A DNA stretch of 64,000 bases, taken from positions 32,001 through 96,000 of IMG/VR virus record IMGVR_UViG_3300045988_095709. One strand, 5' to 3'. Made by a program: the position numbers and the translations under genes. Below the pieces are notes generated by a model. The model worked only from the letters and a program-made list of their open reading frames with translations, did not search any database and was not told where the DNA came from. Below are positions 1 to 54,100 of the stretch, piece after piece. The stretch is from a virus. Positions within the stretch are counted from its first letter, which is position 1, and each line of letters begins with the position of its first letter.

Positions 1-1
1 A

Positions 2-637
2 TTAAGAAGATATATAATAAATAATAATCTGTTACCTTATAAATGCGCTATTTGTGGTATTACTAAATGGAACGATAAAACAATAAGTTTAGAATTAGAT
101 CACATAAATGGTAAGAATAACGATAACAGATTAGAAAATTTAAGGTTTTTGTGTCCAAATTGCCATAGTCAAACTTCTACTTACGGATGTAGAAATAAAT
201 CAATAAACGAATCTAAATACGATATTGATTTCGAAACCAAAATGTTAGTAGAAGACGCTTATGACAAATTGAAAAATATAAAAAAGGTGTCTAAGCAATT
301 AGGAATAAGAAGGTGTGTTGTTACTAAAATAGTAAACGAATCTGGACAAAAAAAATCTAATCAAAAGTATGTAATAAGATATGACAAAGATCACAACGAA
401 ATAAAAAGATACGGAAGTCTATCTGAAACAGCTAGAGATTTAATAAATAACAACGAGGTTAAAACTAAAAAAATAAAAACCTGTACAAGAACTTTAAATA
501 AAAATAAAGATACGTTTTGGTGTAATAGTTATTGGAAAATCGAGGATGGTTGTGGGATAATAAATAATCCACAATTAGAATCTTCTCTAATTGACTCGGA
601 AGTAAAACACGACGAGGCGCAAGCGAAAGCGGCGTGA
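2..637 (+). CDS. HNH homing endonuclease, 5' end outside window
   Basis: The frame is open from the window edge. Translation ...YKCAICGITKWNDKTISLELDHINGKNNDNRLENLRFLCPNCHSQTSTYG shows CxxC...H-N...N...CxxCH, the HNH (beta-beta-alpha-Me) zinc-finger signature. TGA stop at 635-637. No in-frame TAG. Confidence 0.85.
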   Translation, partial: LRRYIINNNLLPYKCAICGITKWNDKTISLELDHINGKNNDNRLENLRFLCPNCHSQTSTYGCRNKSINESKYDIDFETKMLVEDAYDKLKNIKKVSKQLGIRRCVVTKIVNESGQKKSNQKYVIRYDKDHNEIKRYGSLSETARDLINNNEVKTKKIKTCTRTLNKNKDTFWCNSYWKIEDGCGIINNPQLESSLIDSEVKHDEAQAKAA

Positions 638-638
638 C

Positions 639-729
639 AGACTAAACGAGAAGACCGATCTTAGGATTGGATGCAATAGTCGGTTCTTATGAACCCTCTT
701 AGTCTGGGTTCGAATCCTAGTGGGGTAAC
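639..729 (+). other. tRNA-like 3' half / structured RNA (not a complete tRNA)
   Basis: Canonical T arm CTGGG-TTCGAAT-CCTAG (704-720) is followed by a 7-nt acceptor-type strand TGGGGTA plus A (721-728). No complementary 5' strand (TACCCCA or G:U variants) occurs within about 120 nt upstream. Competing helices are present: AGACTAA 639-645 / TTAGTCT 699-705, GGTTC 682-686 / GAACC 691-695, GAACCC 690-695 / GGGTTC 705-710. Confidence 0.3.
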
Positions 730-12050: not shown

Positions 12051-13202
12051 ATGGCAAGAAAAAAAGATAGTCTTTCTGTTTTCGAAGATACATTGAATAA
12101 ATTAGGATATAGTAATCCTGAAATTAAAGAAAATGTAACAAGTCTAGACGACGTTTTAGACAACGAACAGGAAACAGATATAGATGATATAGATGATAAT
12201 CCAGTAAACAAAACTGAGGAAAATAAAGAAGTAGATCCTGAATTAAAAGAAGACAATACTGAAATACCAGAAGGTGTATTTCAAGGTAAAGATCAGGAAA
12301 ATAAAGACGGCGAAAAAAATGCTACAGAAGAACAGACAGAAGAAGAGGAAATAGAAGACATAACAGAAGAAGAATCTTCTCAGGTCGGAGCATTTTTTGA
12401 CGCGTTCGCTGAGTCTTTAGGATGGGATGTTTCAGACGAAGAAAGACCTGATTCTATAGAAGGTCTTATAAGTTACATACAATAGATTGTAGAACAAAAT
12501 TCAAAACCAGAATATGCTGACGAACGAATTCAGCATCTTGACGAATACGTCAAAAACGGTGGAAAGTTTGAAGACTTCTATAACAATATGTCTCAATCTA
12601 TTTCGTATGACGACTTAGACGTAGAGAACGAAACTGATCAGAAACTTGCAGTAAGAGACTACTTAAAGCTTCAAGGTTATACTGAAGAACAAATATCTAA
12701 AAAGATACAAAGATACGAAGACGCTGATGTACTAGAAGACGAGGCTTCTGACGCAATAGAAAGACTGAAAGAAATAAAACAGTTGGAATTAGAAGAGACT
12801 CAGAGACAGCAGCAACAGTATGCAGAAAGACAAAGACAATCTGCAATACAATTCGTATCAGATCTGAATAATAAAATAAGCAATATAACATCTATAAGAG
12901 GTGTTTAGATTCCAAAGCAGGACAGAAAACTTTTGTTTGATTATATTACAAAAGTAGATGCAAATGGAATGACACAGTATCAAAAAGATTTTAATAAGAA
13001 TATGATAAATAATCTTATAGAATCTGCTTATTTTACTATGAAGGGTGATCAATTAATAAATGAAGCTACAAAGACAGGTCAAACTAACGCAGTTAACAAA
13101 CTAAGAAAAACATTAAAACATCAATTTAAAAATCATTCAACTTATAATACACAAGAAGAAAAACAACGTTCATTGATAGATTTAGCGTCAAAATGGATCT
13201 AA
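12051..13202 (+). CDS. scaffolding-like protein, 383 aa, 2 in-frame TAG
   Basis: ORFs 12051, 12588 and 12933 are in one frame, joined by TAG. Very acidic N-terminal half, helical Q/E/R-rich middle, directly upstream of the MCP. Confidence 0.65.
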
Positions 13203-13230: not shown

Positions 13231-14751
13231 ATGAATACACTTTTAAACAATCTTCAACTTTATAGAGGACGTCGTTTCTCTGATCTGGTTGATGAAAACA
13301 TGATTTCAAACGCACTATTAACAAAGCCTCATGAGGTTTCAGGTCTTCTTTCTCTTGTATTTGGTACAAAGGATGACGGAGTATCTACAGCTATTGACTT
13401 GATTACTGGAGGTCTTGGTAAAACAATGATTATCGAAAACCGCGAATATGAGTGGTCAGTAATGATCGACAGCGACCATGCGGTTAACATTCGTTATGCT
13501 AAGTATAACGGAAAGGAGCTTACAGATTCAGATATCGATACAGTAACTCCTGGTATTAATGGTTCTCCTATTTATATAGGTCTCGAGGAGAAGTGGTTTG
13601 GACCTGGTGCAATTCTCTCATTCGACGATTATAATTTTCAGGTTCGTGTTAACGGAAAGCCCTATCAGGATGGAAGCACATGGGTATACGAGTGCTACGT
13701 TGCAGACGGATTTGCAAGCTCATATATTCCTGTTGAGTATCTTCTTCCTGGAAGACAGGTTAGCCGTATTGGTAGCGCATACGAAGAGTATAGCGACGAG
13801 GCAGATATCATAAACTATCAGACACCGTTTAAGATGCGTAACAATCTTAACACACTCCGTCTGTCTTATGATATTACAGGTGACGCTTATTCTACAGTAT
13901 TGGCTATCGCTCTGAAGGATCCTGAGACAGGTAAGACATCTTATCTGTGGGCAGATTACCAGTATTGGTTGGCTCTTCGTCAGTGGAAGAAGCGTGAGGA
14001 GACAATGCTTCTGTTCTCTCACTCTAACAGAAATGCTGACGGTACATACGCACTCAAGGGAACTAACGGACGTGTTGTTCCAATTAGCGCTGGTCTGTTT
14101 GAGCAGGTTTCTCCGGCAAATATTCGTTATTACACAACACTGACTGCAGAATTGCTCGAGGATTATCTGTTCGATCTCACATACAATCTTCTCGGAACAC
14201 AGGAGCGCAAGTTTATGGCTCTTACTGGTGAGATGGGTATTCGTGAATTCGATCGCGTACTTCGCGAAAAGGCTGCTGGATTCCAGCTTATTGATACGAA
14301 ATTTATTACTGGCTCAGGTCAGGAATTGACACTCGGTGGTCAGTTTACAACATATAAGATGACAAACGGTATTGAGTTGACAGTTAAGCGTTGTGCTCTG
14401 TTCGACAATATGGAACTGTTCCGTCAGCTCCATCCGATTTCTGGAAAACCGTTGATGTCATACACATTCTTGTTCGTAGATCTCGGACAGCGTGACGGAC
14501 AGGCAAACATCGTTAAGGTTTGTCGTAAGGGTCGTGAGTTTGTACAGTGGGTTACTGGTGGTTCTGTAATTCCTAGCGGATATGCAAACAGCATCAATAC
14601 TCTGCGTTCTAACTCTAGAGATGGTTATCAGGTTCACTTCCTCGGTGAATTCGGTATAATGCTTCGTAATCCTCTGTCTTGCGGTATTCTCTACTGCGAT
14701 GCTGAAGATACAGATATACGTAACGAGGGTAATGCTAACGTAACAGCGTAA
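13231..14751 (+). CDS. major capsid protein, 506 aa, no TAG
   Basis: Uninterrupted ORF with clearly different, GC-richer codon usage (ctg/ctc/cgt/ggt). Size and position after the scaffold-like gene fit an MCP. Functional call rests on synteny. Confidence 0.75.
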   Translation: MNTLLNNLQLYRGRRFSDLVDENMISNALLTKPHEVSGLLSLVFGTKDDGVSTAIDLITGGLGKTMIIENREYEWSVMIDSDHAVNIRYAKYNGKELTDSDIDTVTPGINGSPIYIGLEEKWFGPGAILSFDDYNFQVRVNGKPYQDGSTWVYECYVADGFASSYIPVEYLLPGRQVSRIGSAYEEYSDEADIINYQTPFKMRNNLNTLRLSYDITGDAYSTVLAIALKDPETGKTSYLWADYQYWLALRQWKKREETMLLFSHSNRNADGTYALKGTNGRVVPISAGLFEQVSPANIRYYTTLTAELLEDYLFDLTYNLLGTQERKFMALTGEMGIREFDRVLREKAAGFQLIDTKFITGSGQELTLGGQFTTYKMTNGIELTVKRCALFDNMELFRQLHPISGKPLMSYTFLFVDLGQRDGQANIVKVCRKGREFVQWVTGGSVIPSGYANSINTLRSNSRDGYQVHFLGEFGIMLRNPLSCGILYCDAEDTDIRNEGNANVTA

Positions 14752-23354: not shown

Positions 23355-24467
23355 ATGAATTTTTTAGATAAGACCGGACTTTAGTATTTTTGGGGAAAAA
23401 TACAAACATATGTTTTAAATCAACTAGAAGCCATTCCTTTAGCTGGAAAATTTAATAACGGATTAATGTACGCTGGAGATAAATAGTTGATAGATAAATA
23501 TAAATCCATGTGGTAGGATATGTACGGATCTGGTGAAGACGGAAATATGCCATTAAAAAGTATAAACATATCATAGAGTGGTGGAAAATTAGTAATATAG
23601 AGCGGGTCGTAGGATTATTCTACAAGTACAAGTAATATAAAAGAAACAAAAAACATACCGACAGCGACAACATCCGCAGACGGAGCTATGAGTTCTTCTG
23701 ATAAATAGACACTTGATAATTTAAATTCTAAATTATAGGATATAGATTTTAGTAAATATTTTAAAGAAGGAAATATATATACTACTGATGACGAAAGTGT
23801 ATCTTTAGATTTATAGTATCTTAGAGATGTAAAAATATGGTCTTATTCTGGAGGAGAGCAAAAAGCAGCTATATTGGGACATTTTCATTCTGATGTTCCC
23901 GGAAGTAAATTTTCCGTAATATATTAGGACGATACAGCAAATTCCGGACATCCTTTGGTGATAGAAACAATTCCTTATTTTGGAATATTGCTAGGAATGT
24001 CTGAAGGAACTAGTGTTGGTTATTATACAGCAACAAGAGGAACATATTCTACATACATAGGAAGAGGTAATGTTTCGGTATGCGATTCTTAGAGTTCTAC
24101 AGGAATATTAACAGGAAAAAGAGTACAACTCACTTCAAAAGGATATCGTCCTGTTGATAAATAGGGATCTGTAACAATAGACGACACGTGGGCTAAAAAT
24201 AATATGAACAATATAGCTACTTGTGATGCCACTATGGTTGACGCAAAAGTCATAGATATAGATTACGATCATAAAATAGCTACAGTTAGAATAACGATAC
24301 AAGATACAGAGGGGTAGTTTTTTTACGTTAAGACTGGAGGAATCGTAATAGGAGGAACAGCATCTTCAGCGGTAAACGGAGAATATTATGCTAACGTTGT
24401 ATTATAGGTTCCGTACGATAGTAGTGGAAAAGTTTCGTTATACGATAAATACGCAATAACTTGGTAA
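23355..24467 (+). CDS. tail fibre protein, 370 aa, about 17 in-frame TAG
   Basis: Same N-terminus, MNFLDKTGL(TAG)YFWGKI. No track ORF because TAG occurs every ~20 codons. Frame 0 checked codon by codon to TAA 24465. Confidence 0.7.
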
Positions 24468-28270: not shown

Positions 28271-29059
28271 ATGGAAGATAAAATCACAGAAAAAGTTTAT
28301 TGTTATGACCATCCTAGCGCTTATAACAACAATAACGCTTGGGAGGCTATGGCTCTTATGAATGGTGGATCAAATTGGTAGAATAACCCATTCATTTATT
28401 TAGTATGGATGATGTTTGCTAATCGTATGTGGGGAGGAGAAAGAGATTGTGCAGGAAATGCTCAGTATATGGCTCTTCAGAACCAGATTAGCGATAACCA
28501 GAATGCGAATTTGGTAATGGACGGTATTAAGGGAACTACCGATGCCGTTCGTCAGTTAGCAGCTAATCTAAATTGCGATTTCAATACTTTGAATTCTGCA
28601 ATTTGCGACGTACGCTCTGGCATACAGCAAGTGGCTGGACAAATCGGTTTCAGCTCCGAAAGAGTAATCAATGCTGTGAATATGGGCGATTGCAATGTTA
28701 TTCAGGCTATCCAGAACTGCTGCTGCCAAACACAGCAGAGTATCTTAAAGATGGGATACGAGAATCAACTTGCAAATTGCAATCAGACGAATGTTCTCTC
28801 TAATGCTATACAAGGTGTAAACGTAGGATTAGAGCGCGGTTTCTCTGCAGTTGCGTATGAGACCCAGAAACAGACGTGTGACTTGCTTAACGCCGGAAAT
28901 TCTAATACACAAAGAATAATTGATGTATTGAATAACCATTGGAATAGTGAGTTGCAGCAGAAGTATGATGATGTAAGAACAGAACTTTCTCAGTACAGAC
29001 AGAGTGCTTATCTGATCTCTCAATTGAAGCCCACTTCAACTACTACTGCGGCTGCGTAA
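28271..29059 (+). CDS. Cys/Gln/Asn-rich protein of unknown function, 262 aa, 1 in-frame TAG
   Basis: ORF 28409 extended upstream through TAG 28379 to ATG 28271. GC-richer, MCP-like codon usage. Flanked by the long spacer and a canonical terminator. Confidence 0.7.
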
Positions 29060-30129: not shown

Positions 30130-30564
30130 ATGATATTTTAGGCAGATGATACATTAATATAGGCAATATGTAATTTTGAAGGTTTAAGAACCACAGCTTA
30201 TAAATGTCCGGCTGGTGTTTATACTATAGGGTATGGACACACAAAAGGAGTAAAAAAAGGACAAAAAATAACTAAACAACAGTCTGTGGAATATTTATAC
30301 TAGGATTTATAGCCTATTGTGGACTACCTAAACAGTATAAATGTGTGTAGAACACAAGGTTAGTTTGATGCCCTTGCCGATTTCATATTTAATTTAGGTA
30401 CTTCTGCATTCAAAAGATCTACGTTATATAAATACATAAAAAATAGATATTCCGACGACGCTATATGTAATCAAATAATGAGGTGGGTATATGCCGGAGG
30501 AAAAAAATTAAACGGTTTAATAAAACGTAGATAGTGGGAATGCGATATGTGGAAATCAAAATAA
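30130..30564 (+). CDS. GH24 (P22 gp19 / lambda-type) endolysin, 144 aa, 6 in-frame TAG
   Basis: NFEGLRTTAYKCPAGVYTIGYGHT (catalytic Glu region) and G(TAG)FDALADFIFNLGTSAF. TAG at codons 4, 11, 58, 61, 78 and 138. Confidence 0.85.
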
Positions 30565-30568
30565 CACT

Positions 30569-31093
30569 ATGAACATATTAGCATCTATTGGAAATACATT
30601 TAATACGATAAGCAACGGTACAGAAATAGGAAAATTAGCTGTTGCTGCATCGGCTATATTAGTCGCATATATATCTCCAATAGTTGGATTGTTAATCGCC
30701 TGTTTTGCATGTTCTATCACAGACATGATTTATGGAATCAAAGTAGCAAAACGGCTAGGAAAGAAAATCACTAGTAAAAAGAACTGGAAAGGAACTCTTA
30801 CTAAAATAAAAGACGAATTTACTTTAATACTATTGGCACACCTATTAGAGTATGTAATAGGATATGGTGATAATTTCATACTATCTGGAGGTATAGCTGT
30901 GATTATATGTTTGACTGAAATACTTTCTATATTGGAAAATCTAAACACACTAAACCCAGAAGGACCGTGGAAACTGATAAGTAAATTCTTAAAGAAAAAG
31001 GGTTCTGACATAATGGATATAGATGACAATATAATTTAGCAAAATGATGACGATAATAAATTGGTTAATAAACAACAAAAGAATCGCCATTGA
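30569..31093 (+). CDS. holin (phage_holin_4_1-like); 156 aa to TAG 31037, 174 aa if read through to TGA 31091
   Basis: Predicted membrane segments; ITDMIYGIKVAKRLGKKITSKKNWKGTLTKI core typical of this holin family. Adjacent to the endolysin. No internal TAG. Confidence 0.75.
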
Positions 31094-31691
31094 TGCCATT
31101 CTTTGCGCCTGTGCTGCGTTATTTCTCGGTTATGGTATAATTATGCATAATCAAAATAAAAAGCTCTCAGAAAGCCTAGAAATGGCTAATAATAACATAG
31201 AGGCCTATTAGGGTGTTATTTCAGCATCCTAGTAGGCCAATAATGTTTTAAAGCTATAGATGGCTGATTTGAAACAATATAATGATGAAGCTATAAATAA
31301 ATTAGATAGCGTAAGAGAAGAATATAAAATAAATGCTAAAGATTTAAACACCGCTGCAACTTAGACTCAAACTATAGACGTTAATAAGAGTAAGGGGGTA
31401 GGGGGTTAGATTGTTGTAGTAAATGATACTATATATAAAGATAGTATATAGTACAACGATCTTACTAAAGTATTTTATACTATAGGAAAAGATAGTGTAA
31501 ATATAAGATTAGATTTTAAAAATACTTAGTATTTATATATTTATAAAAAGAAAGAATATAAAAATAAGAAAAATTTTTTCCAACGCTTATTTACTTTAGA
31601 TTTCAAAAAAGTAACTAGATATAAATATAGAATAATAAACACAAACAATTTGATTAAAGAAGATAGCGTTAGAGTAATAGAACAGAGTTGA
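31044..31691 (+). CDS. spanin-like / lysis-associated membrane protein, 215 aa, about 8 in-frame TAG
   Basis: N-terminal TM segment AIDAILCACAALFLGYGIIM followed by a coiled-coil. Position after the holin. TGA at 31689. Confidence 0.55.
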
Positions 31692-31692: not shown

Positions 31693-32367
31693 ATGAATAT
31701 GTTTTCACTTAAATCAATGATAGACGATATACTATTATTGGTACGCAATAATAATATTAGCGAAAGTGAAGACCTGTCGAGAGCATAGATTGCAACATGG
31801 GTACTTGCGTATAAATCGTACTTGATAAACAAAAAGAACGAAAAAAACGAAGACGACGGAGAAGATAAATCCGACGATAGTTTTTAGACTACAATAGGAC
31901 CTGTAGAACTAATCGAAGAAGAATCTCTCGATAATACGTGTCTTCACAGAAAAAGAACTAAAGAAAAAATACCAGAGTTATTAGGAGACAGTGACGCAAA
32001 CATAATAAGTGTGTGTGATCAAGAAGGATGTGTCATACAAAAGATGAATGATAAACGTAGACATTATCATTATTTCAGAAAATACACATTCGGAGAAATG
32101 ACATACTGGTATGAAAACGGGTACGTTTATGTACAAGGACTTACTGATTTAAACAGACTCAAATATATTTGGATTACAGGTAACTTTGTAGATACTACAG
32201 ACGAAGATGAAGATTCTATACAAATACCTGGATGGATGGTTCCAGATATTAAAAAATTAATATTTAACAATGAATTAGCGTTTATGTTAAGCCTACCTAG
32301 CGACGACGATAATAATTCTACATTATCGGGAATAAAACCAAAGGGAGATTAGCAGAATGAAAAATAA
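31693..32367 (+). CDS. hypothetical structural protein, 224 aa, 3 in-frame TAG
   Basis: ATG lies 1 nt after the upstream TGA. Joins ORF 32011 in the same frame. TAA at 32365. Confidence 0.65.
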
Positions 32368-42149: not shown

Positions 42150-45100
42150 ATGGATATAAAAAGAATGCAAGGCGTCGCTTCATAGATTGCAGTATAGAAT
42201 GCAAATCAATGGGAGTGGGACGTACTTAGACGAGAGCGTCTTAGAGAATTAAGCAAAAGAAGATAGTAGAATAATAATACGGGATCTTCTAATACTAAAT
42301 AGAAGGAACAACAGCAATAGAACGAGTAGGCTCAATAGTCGCAACAAGGCGGCTTTAAGCCTACTTATTCTGCTACATAGAGTTCTCAAAATAAAAACAT
42401 AAATCTACATCCTTTCTTTCTGAATGACGACGATTCAAATACAGATCCTAATTAGTTTTTATAGCCTATAGAGGTTTAGAATATGGGCTGGAATACACAA
42501 ACTAAGAATTGGATAAACGAAGGATCTACTGGAAATCAACAAAGAAGAATAAATAACAGAAACGAAATATTAGCTAGATCTAAATATAATGTTGATTTAT
42601 AGTTGCAAAGAAAGAGAAACATAGCAGAAAATAGTAGGAATGGAGATATGGATTTCTATTATGCTCCATACGAAGATGCTGTAAAAGAATACGAAAAAGA
42701 AAAGCAGTGGTATATAAATACAGATCCTAGAGTATTAGAAGCTAAAAGAAAATACGAATAGATAAAGTCAGGAGAACAGCCTGAAGGATATTTTGACAGA
42801 GCTTTGTATGCGTTAGGTCAGATATCTACTCTCGATGTGCACGGTGTTGTTAACGGAATACAATCGATATTTGCTGGTAATAAAGCTAAAAAACAAGATT
42901 TACTAAACGATGCGTACAACGTATGGATGTAGAGAAAAAATGAGACACAGATAGCTACATCTAATGGTAAACTACAAATAGCTGATTAGATATCTAACGT
43001 GTTAGACTCTTCTTCTATAGATAGATATGTAGATGTATGTAACCAATTAATAGCAGATACAGATAGAAGAAATAGTCTTATAGACAAATATACTAGTAGA
43101 ACAGGATAGGGTATTACTAGAGAAGAGTCTTTGGAATTAGACATGTTGAAAAACAGAATAAATACACTTACTAAGGAAAAAGACGAATTTGAAAAAAACA
43201 TAGAATCTGCAGGAACATACGAATCTAATACTTTGTTGGGAGCTGCAATATCTAATGCGCAAGAATATTTAACCAGTGGAGGAGGTTCTTTTAATTTTGA
43301 TTTTGGAACTGGACTTGGTGGATCTCTATTAGGATTTAGAGAGAACATAACCAAATTGTAGAAAGGATTGGCTACAAGAAATCCTCAGATGGTTGAAGAA
43401 GCAAGACAGAACCTTAAAAGAATAAGAGGTGCTTACGAGAATCAATCTTAGAAAATGAAAAATCTCTGGAGAAAAGATATCGAAAGAGATACTAAAGATT
43501 TGAATAGTTATACCAGCAAATATACAGTTAGTGATTACTTTTTAAATAAAGAACAAGAAGCAAATCAAATATTAAATCCGTTCAATCCTAAGAAGTTGTG
43601 GATGGCTCCTGGTCTTTTAGGAGCATCTTTGTCTGATACTAATAAAATGGCTGTTAGCACAGCTACTGGACTTCTTACTATGTTGCCGATAGGAAGAGCT
43701 GCACGAGTAGGATTACAAGCTGCAAACTATGTGTCGTAGGTAGCTCAGGGAGCAGACGAAAACTTTGCTAACGTAGATTAGGCATACAAAGAGATAGTAA
43801 GATCGTCTTTGACTGAACAAGGATAGTATAGAACGTTTTTATAGGACGGTAGAGAAGCTATCGGAAATCCTGCTGCTACTGACGAGGATATAATAAACGC
43901 TTATTTCAGAGGAGATTATATTCCCAAAGACATAAAAGTCAGAAAGACTTTAATGAATGCTACTACAGGTTCAATGAAGTAGTTCATGTAGGGACAGGGA
44001 GTTAATCTATTAGACTCTTGGATAGACATGGCTATAGAAACTACACCTGTTGGTAAGTTTGCAAAACTGTCCAAAATAGAAGCTGTAAAGGGCGCAAAAC
44101 AAGGTCTTGCGAACATTGGAGAATCGTTAGCTGGAACTAAAGCTGGTCAATTTGTAACAAGTGCTCTAAAGAATTCAAAAGGAAAAGCTACACAGCTTGT
44201 AGACAAGATGGTAGAGTATGGAGTACGAAGAACAGCAAACGTTTCACAGATAGCCAAAGAGATGCCAAAAAGACTTCTACAGACTAGATATAATCTTGGA
44301 GTAGCAAATAGAGCAGTAAAAGATATAGCTAAGAGATCTGTGATAGGAGCCTACTCTGAAGCAGTAGAAGAAGGTTTGCAGCAAGAACAGCAATACGAAA
44401 GAATGCACAATCCTTCTGATTAGTACTATGATGTCTATAAATAGATTCCTAATACTATACTGGGAGGTCCTAGATTGTGGTATTCTTTATTGTTCAAAGA
44501 TCCAGACAAGGCTTCGTAGGAAGAATAGGAAATATGGCAAAGCATGGCTGGTGGTATATTAGGATCTTTTGTACAAGGAGGTTCAATGAATATTGTTCGT
44601 ACTGGAGTAGACGCTGTACAACAGATGAAGGATGGAGATATCATACTCAACAATATAATAGCTGATAAAATAAACGGTGACACTCAAATCGAAAAGGCAA
44701 AGTTGTATTCTAAAAAACTAAGAACATAGAGGGGAAAACAAAACCTGATAGATGTATTAGATTAGTATTAGCAATATAATGATAAACTAAATCAATCATA
44801 TAAAGAAGGTGGTGTAAAATAGGGAATACCAGAAGAGTGGATAGCTGAAGATAAAGCTATGGTGTAGGATATAGAAAACATTCGATATTCACAAAAAACA
44901 CAACAGTTAGCTAATAGATTGGGAATCAAAAATAAAAAGTTCAATCTTATAGACAACGACGATTACGATCTACTTGTAGCGATGCTATATAGAAATCAAC
45001 AGCAAATAAAAGAAGACAACGATTCTTTAAGTGAGGTTGTACGTAATCAAGAAAAACAAACTCCTATTACTTTTAACCAGTTCTTAGAAAATCAAGTAAG

Positions 45101-48100
45101 TGCTGGAAATTTAGATTAGAATTTCTTATAGAGTTATATCGGAGAGCAAAACGGAATAACAAGTTTGGTAAATACTGAAAATTTATCAGAAGAAGAGTTA
45201 AACAATGTTTAGAAAAAATATCAAGAATTACAAAATAGATATAATAATTACATTTCTAACATAGATACGATAGCTAAGCTTGCTGCTAATATGAAAACTC
45301 TTCAAGAGATAAAAGCTCTTGATAGACTTAACGGTAGACAGTCTTTTATACAAAAACGCGTAGAAAGAGAAGTCAATAAAATAAAACAAAATATAAATAA
45401 AATATACGAACAGCAAGGAAAGCAAGCTCATAAGATGGATACTCTTTCTGACGTAGAAGATTTTTATAAGAAAGCAGGTCTTCCTATAAGTGAGGATTAT
45501 ATAAATAACATAAAAACTATAGATGAATACAAATTACAACGAGATTTATCTATAGAAAAAGCTTATAAATTTATAACAGATCCCAAATACGCTAAAAAAC
45601 AACTGTCTCAATACAAAGAAACTAAAAAACAAGACGAGTATTTACAACAACAAGTTGAGTCTGACTACTATGATAAAGTTCTACACGATTATGCCGTACA
45701 AGACGCTGAAATAAACGACAGTAATAATATATATGTCGGAGAAGATGGAAAAACTTATGCGGTAAGACTGAATGTAGCAAAAGACGAAAATGGAGAAGAC
45801 GTTGAGTATTATTCTAAACATCTATATGATCCAAAAACTGACGTAATGGACAGAAGTGAACTTCCTTTCGATAAAGAAGAATGGTTCGACGGAAGAGATC
45901 AGATAGATGATATGACGCAAATAAAATCTCCTCAACTTAGAGAAAACGACGGATCTGAAGAACGTGTAGAAGAATTTTCTAAAAGACGAGATGTAAACGA
46001 ATAGAAACAAAAATATACTCAAGATCTATTAAACGATAAGAGTAGAAATGGTTATACAAGTAGAGCGAATCGTATAGAATCTTTTGTAGATGAAAATTAT
46101 TCTCCGTACAAAAGAGGAAAACAGTATTTCTTAAAGAACGGAGAAGAAGAATTAGAGATAACAAAGACGGAATATAATTACGCTAAATGGTATAAGAAAA
46201 ACTATTATACAGAACAACAAGAGGAAACACAAGACGATGTTCAAACCGAATAGGAAAATATAGACGGACAGCGTGATAACGTTGAACCACAGGTTTAGAA
46301 AGAAGAGAAACCTTCTGGACCAGAAGAATCTCAGAACACTGAACAAGAACAACCGATAACAAATAAAGAAGTAGAACAACCTGCGAGCGAACCTGAACAG
46401 AATCAATAGGAACAACAAGATTAGGAAGAAGATCAGAAGGTTCCAGATATAAAAATGACAGACGCTCAGAAAAATGTTATATAGGATCTTTCTCAGTTTA
46501 AGGTAGAAGGTAATAAAAAAATAAGATACGATTTGCGTTCTCCTATGGATTATTTTATAGAAGACGAAGATGGAAATATACAAGCGTATCCTAGAGTACA
46601 TAGTAAACTTAAGAAGATGTTCGAATTAGACCATACTGTATATGACAATATGAATTCTATATTCGAAGAACTTGAGAAATACAGACTTGATTTTATCGAT
46701 GCATTCAAACATAGAAATGACAATCAAGATGCCGCAGATAAATATAAAAAGTCTAAAATTTCATACATAAATAAAATAAAACAGTTACAATAGGAATACA
46801 ACGAGTCATTATTGAAAACTGTAAAAAATAATGAAAACTTGTACGATTTCTATAATGTTATTTTGGATGGATATTATTCTAACGATAATATACTAATGAG
46901 CAAATCCACTACCGATCATATATCTAAAATAGTAGGAAATAGGATTGGTGATAAGGTACAGTTACCTGCTACTTCTGTAATATCTGGTACAATAGTTGAC
47001 GAAATATGTAGAAGATGTTTTAGTGGAGAAGATGTTAAAAACGAACCGAGATTCAAAATGGACGATTCTACATTCGAACAACTTAAACAAGACATAATAG
47101 ATGTAAAGTCTGACTTCGAAAGCAAAGGTTGGATACTACTTCCGCAACAATATTGTTGGTATACTGAATTAGAAGGAATAGGAAGAATCGCAGGAGAAAC
47201 AGATATGTTGGCTGTTGATACTGACGGTTCTGTATATCTTATCGACTTTAAAACAAGTAAGAGATCTTATAAATACGGAACTCAAGTTAAAATTAGTGGG
47301 GATAAGTTAATCACACAACCTTCTAATTACGTAGAAGCTATAGACTGGAGTTTTGCAAAATCTAACTTTTCAGCAAGAGACGAATATAGAACACAGTTTA
47401 CTTTGTACTCTATGATGATACAACAGTGTACTATGTAGAGGCAGAAAGTAAAAACAATAAATATATTAGGATTTACCGTAAAAGCTTCTGTTTCAGATAA
47501 TGATCTTGTACAAATTAAATCAATAGAAAAACCTAATTTTATAGAGTTAGAAATACAGGATGATTTGAATACTTATTTGATTTTTGACGAAGATTCTTAG
47601 AACACAATAAGAAAAGAAAAAGAAAATTATTTAATTCTCATAAATCATATAGAAAATCAGTTACAATCTGATAAAAACTATTTAAATCAGCATTTCGATG
47701 AAATAAATAAGAGTTCAAACTTATATAGAGAGTTAGAACAACTTTCTACTAGAACTAAAGATATAAAATCTAGAATAAATAAAATAGATATAAACAAAGA
47801 TCCTGTATCTGAATTGAAAAACATTCACGATCAATATCTGTAGTTATCTACTGATTACAGTAATGCTGTACAAAAAGTATAGGATTACTTATCTTAGAAA
47901 GCTGAACAATATCAACAAGAACAAACACCTACAGTATCTACACAAAGTATACCTGTAGATATACAGTGGGACTTTAAAGAAATAGAAAAATACGATCGTG
48001 TATGGTATATAAACGTATCTAGGCAGAACGAAAAGCTTAGACAATTCAGAAGGATTACTACAAATAAAGATTTTATCGAAAACACTACTTTCTATTTGGA

Positions 48101-51100
48101 TACAAACATTAAAACGTTGATGAATCATGATTACATGATAACGTTTGAAAAAATAGTATATCACACTAAGGATCAAAACGGAAACGACGTATAGTTTGTA
48201 TTAGAAGGAGATGACGCTAGAAGTGTATCTATTTACTTTGCAAAATACGATTAGGACAGAAGACCGTACGGATACGGATAGAATCCTTTAGTAAAACAAA
48301 TAAAGGAAGCGTTACAACAAAACGAAGAAAACATAAAAAACAAAAACTTCCAATTAGTTTTGACAGGATTATCCAGAACAAATGGAGTCATAATAAGTCT
48401 TAAAGAAAACAAAAATGTAAAAGACACGTTCGATTTTACAGAAGAATAGATAGAACACCTGTTAGAAAATGGTACAGACCGAGTAGGTGTTACTGATAAA
48501 ATGGGTGTTGTAAAAACTATAGATAAAGCAAACAAAACTATATACGGAGACGGTATATATGCAAACTCAGGAGAACGTAGATTATCTCCTGGACAAGTAG
48601 TACTGATACACGATTTAAAATATAACGAGGATAAAGGTAACGGCAACCATAAAATACCAATCGTACTCTTACCGAAAAAGATAACAAATGCCGATGCTGA
48701 TCTTATTATAAACCTACTGAAAGACACAAGTAAGTAGGAATTGGCTGTTACAAATTCTGGTATTGTTGGACCTATAACAAAATATTAGTTGTTATCTACA
48801 CTCGTAAGATTCGGTCGTGGTGCACAAAATACAGGAAACGATTTCGTATTTAGATACAAAGAAATAGACGGTGTTGCACAAAGAGACATTGTAGAACTAC
48901 AAATCAGAGATGAAGAAGGTCAATTAATTACTACAGAATATGACTTGAATAATCCTGTATCTGTAGGTCAATTAAAACGACGTTTAGTAGAAGATGTATA
49001 CTTATATACAAATAATATATCTGTATTAAACAAGGCTACAAATAAGGCAAGAAACACAGATAAAAACAACATATTCTCACAGTTACAAGAATTCTTCGAA
49101 AACAATCCTAATATAAACTAGATAAGTTATGGAGAGAGTATGGTGTTCAATCGTGCAGACGTAGATCCTGACGGAGATGGTTCGTACAAAGGAATAACAG
49201 GATTACACTGGATGATAAGACACGGTTGGCTTACTACTAACTACGGTGGTGTTACAGATTCTATTTTCTCGGCTACAGGAGTTTAGGGAATAATACCGAA
49301 CAAACAGTAGTAGAATATAGAACAACATCCTGAACCAGAAAAAGTAGAAAATATAGACGTATAGCCAGAATAGAATGTCGGCGGAAACATAGGATACGAG
49401 AAAGAAGATGTTGAAGATGTTAGTATAGACGACGTTAACGAACTTCTTGGTGGAGACTTTGTGGCAGACAACGAAGGTCTTTTCCATAAGCAAAAAGGAA
49501 AAGCTAATGTAAAGATAGAAGAGAATGTAGCAAGAAGAACTATAAAACGAATTGTTGGAGACTCTATACCTTTACAGATGATAGACGATATTATATCGGT
49601 AATGTATGATGGAGATGTTGTCGGTATGTGTACTGCAGCTAGTATATATATTTCTAGACAAGCTGAAGCCGGTACTGATTACCACGAGTCTTTCCATGCT
49701 GTTGTCGAACTTCTTATGGATAAAAATAAGCGTGAGAGTTTGTATAAATTTACTAAGAATAAATTTAACATGCAAAACGCTACAGACGAAGAAGTTGCGG
49801 AAGCTTTAGCAGATTTATTCTTCTTATATAGTAAAGATGCTATACATTTTGAGGGAAGAATTGGAAGACTGTTCTCTTATGTAAAAGACTGGATAAATGC
49901 ATTTAAAGTTACAAAAAGTTTAAGGCTTGCTAATTTGTTTGTGAATGCAGATTTTGGAAAATTCGCAAATAAAACTATAAGCAAAGAACAGGTTAACGAT
50001 TTTAAAAATAGATTCCCAAAAGGTCTTAACTTGAAAATAAAAGGTAAGAACGGAAATGGTGTAGAATTTAAACACATATACACATCTACTCAATTAGACG
50101 ACGCAATTAATTATTTAGTATATCTGATAATAAAGAATGAAGGTATAAGTAGTATTGGTTCTAATCTAGACAAGTTAGATATTTCTAAGGAGCATCTTAC
50201 TAATACGAAACTTGACGAAAACAACAAACCGATTTCTAATTTCGGAAAAACTTATAGAATAGTAACAATGAGCGGTAAGTCTGAATAGGAATTGGATGAT
50301 TTAGTAAAAGAAGGAAAGATAACGCCTCTCGTTAAAAACAACGTGTTAATAATGAGAGAAATATTTAACAATTACGAAGACATCAAACCTATGATACTCG
50401 CAAAGTTGAAGAGCATGGGTGTTAACTCTAGACTAGACTAGGAATAGACAGAAAGAGAAAACAAAGAGGGAGACGATGTTAGTCAAATATCACGAGATGT
50501 AGATTCTCACGCAGACGAATTCTACACACATTCGATGTCTGACGATTTATCTTCTAATATGATATTCTTCTTAAGTACTAGACCTGCATTAAGATATGCT
50601 ACATAGGAGGATGTTGATAATGGAATTGTACAATCTTTGTATAAGAAAGATAGAAACGGAAACGAACAGAGAGTTTTAGTATCTTCTTCTAAAAATTCTA
50701 TGGGAATGACTACTTTCCTAGATTACAAACAAGTACACTAGTTATTATTATCAAATCTTCATGATGTGAAAGACGTTGAAGATTTATATAACAAACTTAA
50801 AAAACTAGGAAAGAACGATTATCTTTATGAAAATATAGCAAGAAGTTTATATCAATTTAGATTCCAATCTTATAAGAGATATACCAACAGAAAAGACGGA
50901 ATGGATAACGTACCTATGGTAATGTATAAAGGAAAATTATTAGATCCTAAACATTATATTTCTAATAAAAACAAATTATCATAGGAAGATCTGTATCCTA
51001 AGTTTGTAAGATGGTCTCATGATGTACTCGACAAGAACGGAAAAATAATATTCAAAGCCGGAGATGTGATACAGGGTGCAAGTATTGTGATGAATTACGA

Positions 51101-54100
51101 TATGGAAAATCTTACTACATAGTTGTTCCAATCTATAAAATCTCAAAAGTTAGATTATAACTTCTTGTATATAAGATCTGTAGTTGACGATAACGGAAAA
51201 GTTATAAACGGAAATTATTTATATTCTTACCATCCTACCAACTACGATAGATCGCAGCAACAATATCCAATACAATGGTTTGATAACTTACGTTCTTCTT
51301 TCAGCGGATTATTTACTAAGTCTGGAGATCTTAATAAGAATTTTACAAACTTTAAAGACTCTAAAAAATATCTTTCTGAATTGTATAACGCGTTAACGTT
51401 GGCGAAAGCTAATAACGGAAAGATTACAATAAACAAAGTAAATTACGACTTGACAAAAGGATCTGACTTAAGCGTTGTTATATCGTAGTTTGTAAAAAGT
51501 ATGAGAAACATAGGCGTAGATATAGATACCAATATGGTTCAATATTTACTACAACAGATGAACCCTGATGAACCTATGTTATACTTGGCATTCGTAGATT
51601 TAATAACTAAGGGAGGAAATAATAGTGTATACAGTATATTATAGCTTATAAAAGATAACGGTATTCTAGACTTAATGCAAAATAGGCTAGAGGCTGGAGA
51701 CATATCTTTCTTTACAAAAGATCAACCTAAAAACAATAGAATACACGATAGTATAAATACCGGATCGTATGTTTATACTAAGAGTGGCTTCTTAACGTTA
51801 TTGGCAATGTGGCAAGGAAAATTTAGAACATCTACTACAGAACTTATGACAATAGGTCCTGAAAACACAAAGATGTATACTTTTGCTCAAAACCATACAG
51901 CTTCGGATACTATATACGATCTTAATAATTCTTATGACGAAAACGGAAATCTTGTAAAAGGATGTACACTTGAAGAGTTAAGTTAGGTGGATTATGTATT
52001 AGCTAGAGATCAGCAAGGTAATAGAATAGGATCTATTATAGGAAAAACTCTTATGAATAAATATTGGAATCCTAATCATAATAAATTACAACTGAGAACT
52101 TCTGCTGGAACTAAATCTTCTACTTATTCTGACGAAGGATCTAAGTATTCTAAGACTACTTCTAGAGAAGACTATATGGCTAAAGTACAGATGTTGTTAT
52201 AGGGAGATATAATATTCCCGGCATTGTCTGATAAATCTACATATTTCTCTATAAGCGGAATAAAACTTCCAGGACTTAATTTCGATAACAGTTCTTCATC
52301 GATAGGAAGTCTTCCGGTATTTAACTCAAACACTGGAACAATGATGTTTATACACAATGTGATGGAGAATTCTGATGATAAGATAAGAAGTATTGAGGAT
52401 AATCCGAAAAGCGGATATAGATATAACGACGTTCTTGATTAGTTTATAGAATATTTTACTTGTGAAAATATAAATGTAAACAAAACTATAAACGACTTAG
52501 GATTGTAGGAATAGAACGCAACAAATACTCCGATATCAGAAAATCAGAAAATTACAAACTATCACAAAGGAAGTATAAATGGTGCAAGATATTTGAGTTT
52601 GATGGGAATATACGCATTAGAAGATATGGAAATAAAGATAAACGGAAAAACTAAATCTTATAAAAAGGGAGATTATATACCGTTTAACTTTAAAGCAAAT
52701 ACTCCTAGTGAAGGTATACTTGAAGGAAGAAATCTTGCTCAGTCTCTTTTCTTTGACCAACCTATAGAAAAACAAAGAGTGATAGTAGCTGAAATATTAA
52801 GAAGAAGACTTGATGATACGTTGAACGACTTGTTAGAAATGGGAATAATAAGCAAAAACGACAATGCTTCTAAAGCAAAAGGTATTGTTACTCATGATTA
52901 TTATTCTTATAAAAATAATTATTTTGACGTAGATAAGATAAACAGATTAGCTAGGTGTTATTCTAACATAGAAGGAATACAAACTTTCGGAAATTCTGCA
53001 TTAGAGTCTTTAGGTGTAGTAGCGATGGCGTACGATATAATGTGTAAGAGTATGATGTCTATGGAAGAAACAAGACGTTTCTTTACGGGAATGCCTCAGT
53101 TCTTTAAAACAAAATATTCTTCAGAAGGAAATTTAGTAGATTATGGAACAGACGAAACTAAACGTTACGGAGGTGAAGGTTCTACTGGTTCTAATAACCG
53201 TGAAGACATGGCTAATATACCAGAAGAGTATACTTGTGCAGAGCTAAAAGATTGGGAAATTTCGTCTGCTATAAGCGAATCTTTGGAACAGGCTTTCAAA
53301 GAAGGAGAATATAGAGAGTCGTTATCTGTATACTATAGCGAAAATCCATCGTTAGGTAAACCTTCCGACGCTTATAATATGTCTATAGAAGACGTAGAAA
53401 AAGAATTAGAAAAAACAGGAATGTTAGAAATGATTGACATGAAGATAAAAAAAGAATCTAATTCTTATAAAAGCGAAATAAACGTTACAGACGGTACTGC
53501 TTACATAACAGATACTATGGCAGAAAATCTGTTAAGAATGCGAGGAGCGTTTAATAACGAAATAGCAGAAGCGTTTGAAAGACTGAGAGGCGATAAAGGA
53601 TACCTAAATAGTGCACAAGATTATAAACTTATACACGAAGCACTTATAAGTACATAGAAATATTCTGCTTTCGGATACAGAATGCAAAACGGAATACCGG
53701 TACACTTCTACGATAAGTTCGCATTGTTCCCAATGTTCAAAGGAATATCTTTCGGATTTAGTAGAGATCTTTATGATAAGATGCGTAAAGAGGGTGTAGA
53801 TATGGTAATGTTTAATTCTGCTGTAAAATCTGGATCTTAGGGTGCGTAGAAGTTCTCTCCTGATATGACAAAAGAAGATTTATAGAAGTTTACATTTAAA
53901 AACAATATCTATAAACAAAAGTATAAGTACATAAGAAGGCAGTTGAATACAGATCCTAGAACTGATGAAGTAATGGCTGCAGGAACACAGGCTATGAAGG
54001 TTTCTCTCAGTGTACTTAGAGATTGGCAAACATATTCTATACAAAATCCTGACGGAACGGAACAAACTTTGAATAAAAACGAAGTATTGAGTGCTATAAT

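What the first reader, a model, noticed from the sequence alone, without database searches (positions are those of the whole stretch)
30130..31093. Lysis cassette: endolysin heavily recoded; holin TAG-free but terminated by TAG
The endolysin has TAG at codons 4 and 11 (6 in 144 codons), so it cannot be made without suppression. This fits the lysis-timing idea of Borges et al.

The holin has no internal TAG, and its only stop is TAG (31037). Unsuppressed, it ends 4 nt before the next ATG. Suppressed, it gains an 18-aa charged tail (QNDDDNKLVNKQQKNRH) that ends at TGA 31091 and overlaps the spanin-like gene by 50 nt.

Two holin isoforms whose ratio tracks suppressor level would be a holin/antiholin-type timer built on codon reassignment.
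Basis: inference. Interest (0 to 1): 0.65.

Follow-up and report, generated by a model that had tools for sequence, protein, structure and literature searches.

The report
Recoded crAss-like phage lysis cassette
This is an ordinary lysis cassette (lysozyme, holin, spanin-like gene) of a gut crAss-like phage that reads TAG as glutamine; the holin's "TAG stop" is an internal glutamine codon, so the proposed two-isoform holin timer is not supported.

Summary
The sequence facts are correct. The GH24 endolysin (30130-30564) has six TAGs, at codons 4, 11, 58, 61, 78 and 135. The holin ORF (from 30569) has a TAG at 31037 and a TGA at 31091. The next ORF starts at 31044.

The reading "holin terminated by TAG" is wrong. 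The window is a TAG=Gln crAss-like phage (Suoliviridae-like). Its 35 plus-strand genes carry 326 in-frame TAGs and all end in TAA or TGA.

In 84 distinct holin orthologues the protein is 168-182 aa with a 22-34 aa hydrophilic tail. None stops at the column of 31037. In all 63 scorable cases the holin ends 38-65 nt inside the downstream spanin-like gene. So the 174-aa form is the normal holin, TAG is codon 157, and the 50-nt overlap is ancestral.

The holin body lacks TAG because it contains no glutamine. Tail TAGs in relatives are rare, scattered, and used at the genome-average rate.

The endolysin and spanin recoding matches a pattern already published by Borges et al. A minor truncated 156-aa by-product cannot be excluded, since TAG-C is a disfavoured context here, but nothing points to a conserved function.

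Side finding: the phage's amber-suppressor tRNA gene is split in this strain by an HNH-carrying, group-I-like intron. Its 3' exon is at window 692-729.

The parts
30130..30564 (+). Endolysin, GH24 / T4-type phage lysozyme, 144 aa. TAG(Gln) at codons 4, 11, 58, 61, 78 and 135; stop TAA.
   Evidence: Pfam PF00959 E 2.4e-40 and PHROG 7 endolysin E 8.7e-53. Relatives share the N-terminus MIF..D.T, which fixes the start codon. Two strain haplotypes differ in TAG positions: 4,11,58,61,78,135 versus 11,54,58,76,135.
30569..31093 (+). Holin, Phage_holin_4_1 family, full length 174 aa, stop TGA 31091-31093. Hydrophobic segments lie at about residues 20-60 and 96-125, followed by KFLKKKG and a 29-aa hydrophilic tail.
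   Evidence: Pfam PF05105 E 1.3e-12. Hydropathy. Orthologues are 168-182 aa with 22-34 aa tails. Public gene calls on 10 sibling contigs give 174 aa.
31037..31039 (+). TAG, codon 157 of the holin. It is a Gln sense codon, not the stop, and is followed by C, which is the rarest 3' context for sense TAGs in this genome.
   Evidence: The frame continues in all orthologues, and the DNA just downstream (gac gat aat aaa ttg gtt) is identical, in frame, to the tail of L031, which has no TAG. TAG-C accounts for 17 of 326 sense TAGs.
31044..31093 (+). Dual-coding overlap: the holin tail (frame 2) and the N-terminus of the spanin-like protein (frame 0).
   Evidence: An overlap of 38-65 nt is present in 63 of 63 relatives and is annotated in cr131_1, cr130_1 and cr56_1. 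Across 12 strain variants there are no variable sites in the last 79 nt of the holin against 26 in the first 446 nt.
31044..31691 (+). Spanin-like / lysis-regulatory membrane protein, 215 aa (214 if it starts at ATG 31047). It has an N-terminal TM segment at residues 13-36 and 8 TAG codons; stop TGA.
   Evidence: Weak PHROG Rz-like spanin matches, E 8e-5 and 5e-3. Hydropathy. TAG/Gln is 8/13, P = 0.022. Codons 56, 63 and 64 are TAG in 58-60 of 66 relatives.
692..729 (+). 3' exon of the phage amber-suppressor tRNA (anticodon CUA). The supply of this tRNA is what allows the cassette to be translated.
   Evidence: The intact tRNA(CTA) is found in sibling contigs L202 and L203 at the same place upstream of the dUTPase gene, and in L217. 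The window sequence from 692 onward is identical to the part of that tRNA 3' of U35.
1..691 (+). 3' part of an intervening sequence, about 975 nt in full, that splits the suppressor tRNA between U35 and A36 of the anticodon. It carries an HNH endonuclease ORF that ends with TGA at 635-637. It is probably a group I intron.
   Evidence: Comparison of L201 and L202. HNH Pfam match at 23.5 bits against a cutoff of 21.4. The 5' exon ends in U and the insert ends in G. Elements resembling P7/P3'/P8 (CAGACUAAA ... AAUAGUCGG) were seen by eye only. There was no Rfam hit.

Best explanation
The region is the lysis cassette of a crAss-like phage (order Crassvirales, closest to Suoliviridae/Oafivirinae) whose late genes use genetic code 15 (TAG = Gln). 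It has three tightly packed, co-oriented genes:
- a GH24 lysozyme (30130-30564);
- a Phage_holin_4_1 holin of 174 aa (30569-31093);
- a spanin-like membrane protein (31044-31691).

The TAG at 31037 is holin codon 157, read as Gln by the phage's tRNA(CUA). The holin ends at TGA 31091. Its last 16 codons are co-encoded with the first 16 codons of the spanin-like gene. That overlap is ancestral to the whole clade.

Shown here:
- TAG is a sense codon.
- TAG columns align with Gln in relatives.
- The orthologous holin length, tail and overlap are conserved.
- The endolysin and the spanin-like protein cannot be made without suppression, and the spanin carries three deeply conserved TAGs.

Inferred:
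- As Borges et al. propose, translation of the cassette is gated by suppressor availability. The lock sits in the endolysin and above all in the spanin, not in the holin.
- When suppression fails at codon 157, a 156-aa holin lacking 18 tail residues is released. This is a minor, probably near-neutral by-product rather than a designed second isoform.
For: 1. Code. Plus-strand ORF coverage is 0.51 under the standard code and 1.0 with TAG as sense. There are 326 in-frame TAGs in 35 genes, and all 35 end in TAA or TGA. At the window's TAG columns in the spanin and Ring-2 proteins, relatives have Gln or TAG in 63-67% of cells against a background of 4-6%. MS proof of TAG=Gln in crAss-like phages is published (PMC9523058).

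2. Holin end. Among 84 distinct complete orthologues from 118 loci, length is 168-182 aa and the tail after the KKG motif is 22-34 aa. The stop is TAA or TGA in all 71 distinct C-terminal halves tabulated, and none stops at the column of 31037. The 156-aa form would have an 11-aa tail, outside the observed range. The DNA after the TAG is homologous and in frame with TAG-free tails.

3. Overlap. The downstream ORF starts 38-65 nt before the holin stop in 63 of 63 relatives. GenBank annotations of cr131_1 and cr130_1 show overlaps of 44 and 38 nt. Independent gene calls on 10 sibling contigs give a 174-aa holin.

4. No TAG signal in the holin. 40 of 84 holins have no TAG, 39 have TAGs in the body, and 5 have them only in the tail. 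TAG/(TAG+CAA+CAG) is 0.31 in the body and 0.29 in the tail, against 0.308 genome-wide.

5. A second 'TAG-4 nt-ATG' case at 32350 aligns with a conserved Gln (GPQQDEK) in relatives.

6. Quantitative limit. The 5,372-codon ORF (42150-58268) has 104 TAGs. Even 95% read-through per codon would give 0.5% full-length product, so late suppression must be about 98-99% or better. That leaves about 1-2% or less of truncated holin.

7. A suppressor tRNA(CUA) exists in the same phage species.
Against: - The holin TAG is followed by C. This context is strongly avoided by sense TAGs here (5.2% against 17.4% after CAA/CAG, P 6e-11) and in relatives (9.6% against 16.1%). TAG-C is over-represented among TAGs in the last 20 codons of genes (3/12 against 14/314, Fisher P 0.019, post hoc). 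This codon may therefore be read through less efficiently than average.
- TAG occurs at the same tail column in L013 and L014 and one column away in L011. These are non-sister lineages.
- TAG157 is invariant in 12 strain variants, although the whole overlap region is invariant too.
- No protein or ribosome data exist for this phage, so isoform ratios are unknown.
Confidence: 0.85

Rival explanations
1. TAG 31037 is a regulated, leaky stop. At low suppressor levels the holin ends there (156 aa). At high levels it gains the 18-aa tail. The ratio of the two isoforms acts as a holin/antiholin-type lysis clock. It might also switch the downstream spanin gene between termination-reinitiation coupling (TAG lies 4 nt before its ATG) and occlusion by read-through ribosomes.
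For: - The truncated product keeps all hydrophobic segments and the KKKG motif.
- The extension changes tail charge from -4 to -3 and adds four basic residues. From established knowledge of the lambda S holin (not tested here), the charged C-terminal tail of a holin tunes lysis timing.
- The rare TAG-C context suggests below-average suppression.
- TAG lies 4-10 nt upstream of the spanin ATG in three non-sister lineages: the window, L011, and L013/L014.
Against: - TAG is absent from the tail in 74 of 84 orthologous holins. 40 have no TAG at all, and 39 have TAGs in the membrane body, which would abolish any 'early' isoform.
- Tail TAG columns are scattered (2, 12, 13, 21, 23, 26, 28). The clustering at columns 12-13 is not significant: about 0.2 conditional on the window's site (my estimate from the data).
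- TAG usage in the tail equals the genome average.
- The other TAG-4 nt-ATG case in the window is a conserved Gln.
- Late-stage suppression must be near-complete to make the 104-TAG and 36-TAG proteins encoded on the same strand in the same late module.
- There is no dual-start motif or other antiholin signature.
Confidence: 0.08
2. TAG 31037 is the true and only stop of the holin. The holin is 156 aa, the downstream 54 nt are not translated in the holin frame, and the holin and spanin genes do not overlap.
For: - Under the standard code the ORF ends there.
- A 4-nt spacer to the next ATG is a typical intergenic distance in this genome; for example, the endolysin-to-holin gap is 4 nt.
Against: - It would be the only one of 35 genes to end in TAG in a genome with 326 sense TAGs.
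- Every orthologue continues in this frame for a further 10-22 codons, and the overlap exists in TAG-free orthologues.
- An 11-aa tail is outside the 22-34 aa range.
Confidence: 0.02
3. The distal holin tail has no function of its own. It exists only because the spanin start was overprinted on the holin 3' end. Where exactly holin translation stops is then selectively neutral, and a poorly suppressed TAG is tolerated there.
For: - The distal tail is poorly conserved in sequence, while its proximal part (E-D-Y-x-G-x-E-I) is conserved.
- TAG-C, the disfavoured context, is enriched near gene 3' ends.
- The strain-level invariance of the last 79 nt can be explained by constraint from the spanin N-terminus and its initiation region alone.
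Against: - Tail length is held within 22-34 aa across 84 orthologues.
- The distal tail stays hydrophilic and acidic, often ending in ES, even in cr55_1, where there is no overlap.
Confidence: 0.3

Closest known systems
Lysis cassettes of TAG-recoded crAss-like phages as described by Borges et al. (bioRxiv 10.1101/2021.08.26.457843; Nat Microbiol 2022)
   Same: - The late structural and lysis module is in code 15.
- The lysozyme and spanin gene families use TAG for Gln more than expected. Here the spanin is 8/13 (P 0.022) and the endolysin 6/11 (P 0.088).
- The suppressor tRNA is encoded by the phage.
- A holin-family gene sits between the two.
   Different: Nothing essential. Here the conserved TAG positions could be pinned down: spanin codons 56, 63 and 64 are TAG in about 90% of relatives. 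The holin is shown not to take part in the TAG bias.
Annotated holin / downstream gene pairs of cr131_1 (Cacepaovirus simiae) and cr130_1 (Chuhaivirus simiae), Suoliviridae, Oafivirinae (Yutin et al. 2021, PMC7886860)
   Same: - The holin is 53-54% identical.
- The gene order is the same: endolysin, holin, 217-218 aa membrane protein, Ring protein.
- The holin is 178-180 aa and overlaps the next gene by 38-44 nt.
   Different: - Their endolysin is a different module, a 142-aa DUF5675-like protein annotated 'putative transpeptidase', instead of GH24.
- Their holins carry TAGs in the membrane body (codons 5 and 70, or 65 and 70) and none in the tail.
Lambda S105/S107 holin-antiholin (dual-start motif)
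   Same: The idea is the same: two products of one holin gene that differ by a few charged terminal residues and set lysis time.
   Different: - Lambda uses two start codons and an N-terminal difference. Here there is a single Met start.
- The supposed difference is C-terminal.
- It is not conserved among orthologues, and there is no evidence that two products exist.
Programmed stop-codon read-through extensions (for example the Q-beta A1 protein, made by UGA read-through of the coat gene)
   Same: A stop-type codon is followed in frame by a translatable extension.
   Different: In programmed read-through the stop is conserved and mostly obeyed. Here the codon is reassigned genome-wide, is not conserved at this site, and the 'extension' is the ancestral C-terminus.
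Group I introns in bacterial tRNA anticodon loops (cyanobacterial tRNA-Leu(UAA), tRNA-fMet). This entry concerns the side finding.
   Same: - The insertion lies inside the anticodon.
- The 5' exon ends in U and the intron ends in G.
- There are intron-plus and intron-less alleles at the same site.
   Different: - It lies in a phage amber-suppressor tRNA.
- It carries an HNH homing endonuclease ORF that fills most of the intron.
- It is not recognised by the Rfam group I intron model.

Membership tests
Phage_holin_4_1 (PF05105) holins | Match to the family HMM above the curated cutoff | tested here: met
   48.3 bits against a cutoff of 22.2, E 1.3e-12, residues 34-139. PHROG 199 holin, E 2.2e-9.
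Phage_holin_4_1 (PF05105) holins | Small membrane protein with several TM segments and a charged, hydrophilic C-terminal tail | tested here: met
   Kyte-Doolittle hydrophobic blocks lie at about residues 20-60 and 96-125, followed by KFLKKKG and a 29-aa tail of net charge -3.
Phage_holin_4_1 (PF05105) holins | Forms membrane lesions that release the endolysin at a set time | not testable with these tools
   Requires expression and lysis assays.
GH24 / Phage_lysozyme (PF00959) endolysins | HMM match over the whole domain and a catalytic Glu in the N-terminal (F)EG motif | tested here: met
   138.2 bits, profile positions 2-125 of 125. Glu17 in NFEGLR is read from the sequence. Other catalytic residues were not examined.
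Code-15 (TAG=Gln) recoded late module of crAss-like phages | ORFs are restored only when TAG is read as sense, and genes end in TAA or TGA | tested here: met
   Coverage rises from 0.51 to 1.0. All 35 genes end in TAA or TGA.
Code-15 (TAG=Gln) recoded late module of crAss-like phages | TAG positions align with Gln in homologues | tested here: met
   Gln or TAG fills 63-67% of cells at the window's TAG columns against a background of 4-6%. The Ring-2 C-terminus reads GDqQNEK here and GPQQDEK in relatives.
Code-15 (TAG=Gln) recoded late module of crAss-like phages | Phage-encoded suppressor tRNA with anticodon CUA | tested here: met
   It is intact in sibling contigs L202 and L203 and in relative L217. 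In the window only the 3' exon (692-729) is present, because the gene is split by an insert and the window starts inside that insert.
Code-15 (TAG=Gln) recoded late module of crAss-like phages | Lysozyme and spanin families biased towards TAG (Borges et al.) | tested here: inconclusive
   Spanin 8/13, P 0.022. Endolysin 6/11, P 0.088 in this single genome. Spanin TAGs at codons 56, 63 and 64 are conserved in 58-60 of 66 relatives.
Holin/antiholin pair made from one gene (lambda S type) | Dual-start motif giving two N-terminally different products | tested here: not met
   There is a single ATG at 30569 (MNILASIG...) and no Met-Lys/Arg-Met motif.
Holin/antiholin pair made from one gene (lambda S type) | Two protein products demonstrably made, one inhibiting the other | not testable with these tools
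   Needs proteomics and genetics.
Programmed read-through with a functional C-terminal extension | The stop codon is conserved at the read-through site among relatives | tested here: not met
   A TAG at or next to this column occurs in 3 lineages only. 74 of 84 orthologues have no tail TAG, and none has TAA or TGA there.
Programmed read-through with a functional C-terminal extension | The downstream frame is conserved as coding | tested here: met
   The tail is 22-34 aa in all orthologues, but as ordinary coding sequence without any stop.
Rz-like i-spanin | N-terminal TM anchor plus a periplasmic coiled-coil domain; family HMM match | tested here: inconclusive
   A TM segment at residues 13-36. 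PHROG 739 and 214 match at E 8e-5 and 5e-3 over residues 12-103 only. No Pfam spanin hit.
Rz-like i-spanin | Partner o-spanin lipoprotein gene, embedded, overlapping or adjacent | not tested
   The one search list shows no ATG-initiated ORF of 40 aa or more in the other two + strand frames within 31044-31691. No dedicated search was made.
Group I intron in a tRNA gene (side finding) | Precise insertion with the 5' exon ending in U and the intron ending in G; an intron-less allele at the same site | tested here: met
   Comparison of L202 (intact) with L201 and the window (split between U35 and A36; the insert ends ...cttatG).
Group I intron in a tRNA gene (side finding) | Conserved catalytic core recognised by a covariance model | tested here: not met
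   No Intron_gpI hit at E<=1. The fold of 586-691 has z = -0.93. Motifs resembling P7/P3'/P8 were seen by eye only.

The most novel reading that the evidence does not exclude
Holin codon 157 is a deliberately weak sense codon, a TAG followed by C, the context sense TAGs avoid. While suppressor tRNA(CUA) is scarce, ribosomes terminate there. They release a 156-aa holin with a short, purely acidic tail and re-initiate 4 nt downstream on the spanin gene. Once spliced suppressor accumulates, ribosomes read through, make the 174-aa holin and run over the spanin start. The holin isoform ratio and spanin output would then both report suppressor level. In this strain that level would itself depend on splicing of an intron in the suppressor tRNA.
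Probability: 0.06. Interest if true: 0.6.

Novelty: already known. Interest (0 to 1): 0.17.

Why it matters
As it stands, the main value is to prevent a wrong annotation. In code-15 phages, a TAG near a gene's 3' end that happens to sit just before the next start codon is still a Gln codon. The resulting gene overlap is real and ancient.

The analysis also sharpens the published lysis-timing idea for this clade:
- The conserved TAG 'locks' are in the spanin-like gene (three TAGs kept in about 90% of relatives) and in the lysozyme.
- The holin is indifferent to recoding. Half of the orthologues have no TAG.

If the minority reading were true, it would be the first holin timer built on codon reassignment.

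The split suppressor tRNA may matter for a separate reason. It could help explain why suppressor tRNAs are 'missing' from many recoded phage genomes when standard tRNA finders are used (40% detection in Borges et al.; noted as unexplained in Yutin et al.).

Tried and rejected
1. Clustering of tail TAGs. I tested whether TAG at this tail column is more than chance. There are 11 tail TAGs in 10 of 84 sequences. Columns 12-13 are hit in three non-sister lineages. Conditional on the window's site, P is about 0.2. Rejected as a signal.

2. The 'TAG, 4 nt, ATG' geometry. It occurs twice in 34 gene junctions (31037 and 32350). The second case aligns with a conserved CAA/CAG Gln in about 45 relatives, so the geometry is coincidental.

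3. The 'holin is kept TAG-free' idea. Rejected: the first 156 residues contain no Gln at all, and 39 of 84 orthologues have body TAGs.

4. Search for the suppressor tRNA.
- ARAGORN and Rfam find only tRNA-Met and tRNA-Gly in the window.
- Walking sibling contig IMGVR_UViG_3300045988_119203 past the window end (L119, L120, L200) gave only tRNA-Leu(TAA) and a 'permuted tmRNA' call.
- A first exact-protein look-up with ORF 242-637 failed because that ORF is only the tail of the HNH gene.
- The dUTPase look-up finally gave intact and split alleles.

5. Support for a group I intron. Rfam at E<=1 returned nothing relevant, and the folding energy of 586-691 is not better than shuffles. The call therefore rests on splice-site features, the HNH ORF, the intron-less allele, and core-like motifs seen by eye.

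6. The large protein-database searches, structure prediction and fold search were not used. The DNA-level comparison already answered the question.
Full report
**What the window is.** The 64-kb window is almost entirely plus-strand coding, but only if TAG is read as a sense codon. ORFs of at least 100 codons cover 0.51 of the plus strand under the standard code and 1.0 with TAG as sense. Treating TGA as sense changes little (0.53), and treating TAA as sense raises it only to 0.61. I delimited 35 plus-strand genes. They contain 326 in-frame TAGs in 20,664 codons, and every one ends in TAA or TGA. The nearest named relatives are crAss-like phages: Dulem virus 42, and cr131_1 and cr130_1 of Suoliviridae/Oafivirinae. 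Neighbouring genes carry crAss Ring-1, Ring-2 and muzzle protein domains. TAG=Gln is supported in two ways. At the window's TAG columns in the spanin-like and Ring-2 proteins, relatives have Gln or TAG in 63-67% of cells against a background of 4-6%. It has also been shown by mass spectrometry for crAss-like phages (PMC9523058).

**Check of the observation.**
- The endolysin (30130-30564, 144 aa) is a GH24 phage lysozyme (Pfam E 2.4e-40; PHROG 7). It has TAG at codons 4, 11, 58, 61, 78 and 135.
- Its start codon is fixed by the shared N-terminus MIF..D.T in relatives. No alternative start lies between codon 11 and the catalytic-motif Glu17. The enzyme therefore needs TAG decoding.
- Its TAG density (4.2%) is the highest of the 35 genes. 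Given 11 Gln positions and a genome-wide TAG share of 0.308 among Gln codons, the excess is marginal (P = 0.088).
- The holin ORF (Phage_holin_4_1, E 1.3e-12) has TAG at 31037 and TGA at 31091. The next ORF starts at 31044.

**Is TAG 31037 the holin's stop?** No. I collected 118 loci encoding relatives of this holin from GenBank phages, IMG/VR and metagenomes. They give 84 distinct complete holins.
- All are 168-182 aa long.
- After the conserved GPW...KKG motif, all carry a hydrophilic, mostly acidic tail of 22-34 aa.
- In all 71 distinct C-terminal halves tabulated the stop is TAA or TGA, and none has any stop at the column of 31037.
- The window's 174-aa form has a 29-aa tail and fits. The 156-aa form would have an 11-aa tail and would be an outlier.
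- The DNA just after the TAG (gac gat aat aaa ttg gtt) is identical, in the same frame, to the tail of L031, whose holin has no TAG.
- A standard-code distant relative (cr55_1) also has a 24-aa tail.
- Independent public gene calls on ten sibling contigs give a 174-aa holin.

**The overlap is ancestral.** In all 63 relatives that could be scored, the downstream ORF of 215-231 aa starts 38-65 nt before the holin's stop. The same overlap is annotated in cr131_1 (44 nt), cr130_1 (38 nt) and cr56_1 (32 nt). Most of these holins have no TAG in the tail, so read-through of a former stop did not create the overlap. Among 12 strain-level variants of this phage there are 26 variable sites in the first 446 nt of the holin and none in the last 79 nt (P about 0.01-0.02). 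That is what a dual-coding segment would show.

**Is the holin's TAG pattern meaningful?** The 'TAG-free' body has a trivial cause: the first 156 residues contain no glutamine. The four Gln positions are all in the last 18 residues, one as TAG and three as CAA, which is the genome average.
- Across orthologues, 40 have no TAG, 34 have TAGs only in the body, 5 only in the tail, and 5 in both.
- TAG/(TAG+CAA+CAG) is 0.31 in bodies and 0.29 in tails.
- Tail TAGs fall in columns 2, 12, 13, 21, 23, 26 and 28.
- The window, L013/L014 and L011 share column 12 or 13 but are not sister lineages. With about nine independent events over about 26 columns this is not significant.
- The second 'TAG, 4 nt, ATG' junction in the window (32350/32357) aligns with a conserved Gln in relatives: GPQQDEK against GDqQNEK here.

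- Sense TAGs in this genome avoid a following C: 5.2% against 17.4% after CAA/CAG (P 6e-11). The same holds in relatives, 9.6% against 16.1%.
- A is favoured after TAG. This resembles the context dependence of amber suppression known from E. coli (from memory, not tested here).
- The holin TAG is a TAG-C. TAG-C is over-represented among TAGs in the last 20 codons of genes: 3/12 against 14/314, Fisher P 0.019, a post hoc test.

The simplest reading is that poorly suppressed contexts are tolerated where truncation is harmless. It does mean that the fraction of 156-aa product could be above the average failure rate. That average must be low. The same late module encodes a 5,372-codon ORF with 104 TAGs and a 1,766-codon ORF with 36 TAGs. 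At 95% read-through per codon, only 0.5% of the former would be completed.

**Where the recoding 'lock' really is.** The spanin-like gene has 8 TAGs among 13 Gln positions (P 0.022). Its codons 56, 63 and 64 (31209-31211 and 31230-31235) are TAG, not CAA or CAG, in 58-60 of 66 relatives. Together with the TAG-rich lysozyme, this reproduces what Borges et al. reported for crAss-like phages, where the lysozyme and spanin families are significantly TAG-biased. That part of the finding is correct but already known.

**Mechanism proposed.**
Shown:
- The three genes are packed at +4 and -50 nt and read in code 15.
- The endolysin and the spanin-like protein cannot be completed without tRNA(CUA).
- The holin can be completed up to residue 156 without it, and to residue 174 with it.

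Inferred:
- The cassette is translated late, when suppressor is abundant, giving mainly the 174-aa holin.
- The 156-aa product is a minor by-product.
- Timing control through recoding, if it exists, acts through the lysozyme and spanin.

**The suppressor tRNA (side finding).** tRNA finders report only tRNA-Met and tRNA-Gly in the window. Sibling contigs with an identical dUTPase gene show two alleles just upstream of it.
- L202 and L203 have an intact 73-nt tRNA with anticodon CTA.
- L201, L204 and the window have the same gene split between U35 and A36 of the anticodon by an insert of about 975 nt. The insert encodes an HNH endonuclease (Pfam 23.5 bits).
- The window begins inside this insert. 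The HNH ORF ends at 637, the insert ends with G at 691, and the tRNA 3' exon is 692-729.
- The 5' exon ends in U and the insert ends in G. The last 55 nt contain motifs resembling the P7/P3'/P8 core of group I introns. I saw these by eye only; Rfam found no group I match and the fold is not better than shuffles.
- A nearly identical intact tRNA(CTA) occurs in a 101-kb relative.

If the insert splices, suppressor supply in this strain depends on splicing. If such split genes are common, they could account for some recoded phages in which no suppressor tRNA is detected.

**Verdict.** The sequence observation is confirmed. The identification of the cassette and of the recoded endolysin is right, and that pattern is already published. 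The cassette is an ordinary member of a known kind.

Noticed in passing
window 1-729 (insert 1-691, HNH ORF ending at 637, tRNA 3' exon 692-729); L201 8957-9929; intact allele L202 9895-9967: The phage's amber-suppressor tRNA(CUA) gene is split between U35 and A36 of the anticodon by an insert of about 975 nt carrying an HNH endonuclease, probably a group I intron. Near-identical strains carry the uninterrupted gene. Standard tRNA finders miss the split gene.
   Followed up: partly
window 31209-31211 and 31230-31235 (spanin-like codons 56, 63, 64): These three TAG codons are kept as TAG, not CAA or CAG, in 58-60 of 66 relatives down to about 50% protein identity. This suggests selection for TAG itself in the spanin-like gene.
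   Followed up: partly
whole window, all 326 sense TAGs: There is a strong 3' context bias. The base after TAG is A 43%, G 29%, T 23% and C 5%; after CAA/CAG, C is 17%. True stops are followed by T in 24 of 35 genes. Relatives show the same bias.
   Followed up: partly
window 13231-14751, 12051-13202, 28271-29059: Three genes almost avoid TAG despite many Gln codons: 0/17, 2/32 and 1/25 (P 0.001-0.002). They may be very highly expressed late genes, such as the major capsid protein. Gene 23355-24467 is the opposite, at 14/19.
   Followed up: no
window 32350-32367: This is a second junction with an in-frame TAG 4 nt before the next gene's ATG (Ring-2 protein and the following gene, 11-nt overlap). 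The TAG aligns with a conserved Gln in relatives.
   Followed up: yes
window 30130-30564 compared with loci L001-L118: The endolysin module upstream of the holin is swapped among relatives: GH24 lysozyme, a DUF5675-like protein of about 142 aa, or an unrelated ORF of about 235 aa. Within this phage species there are two endolysin haplotypes with different TAG positions; for example, codon 4 is TAG in one and Glu in the other.
   Followed up: partly
L200 7736-8036 (sibling contig IMGVR_UViG_3300045988_119203, outside the window, in the minus-strand early region): ARAGORN and Rfam (RF04321, 47.6 bits against a gathering score of 47) both call a 'permuted tmRNA'. It is borderline and unexplained.
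   Followed up: no
window about 63643-63690 and beyond: A hairpin followed by a T-run, resembling a terminator, lies after the last plus-strand gene (which ends at 63581). Beyond it, in the sibling contig, coding switches to tightly packed minus-strand ORFs that are uninterrupted under the standard code. This marks the boundary between the late and early modules.
   Followed up: no
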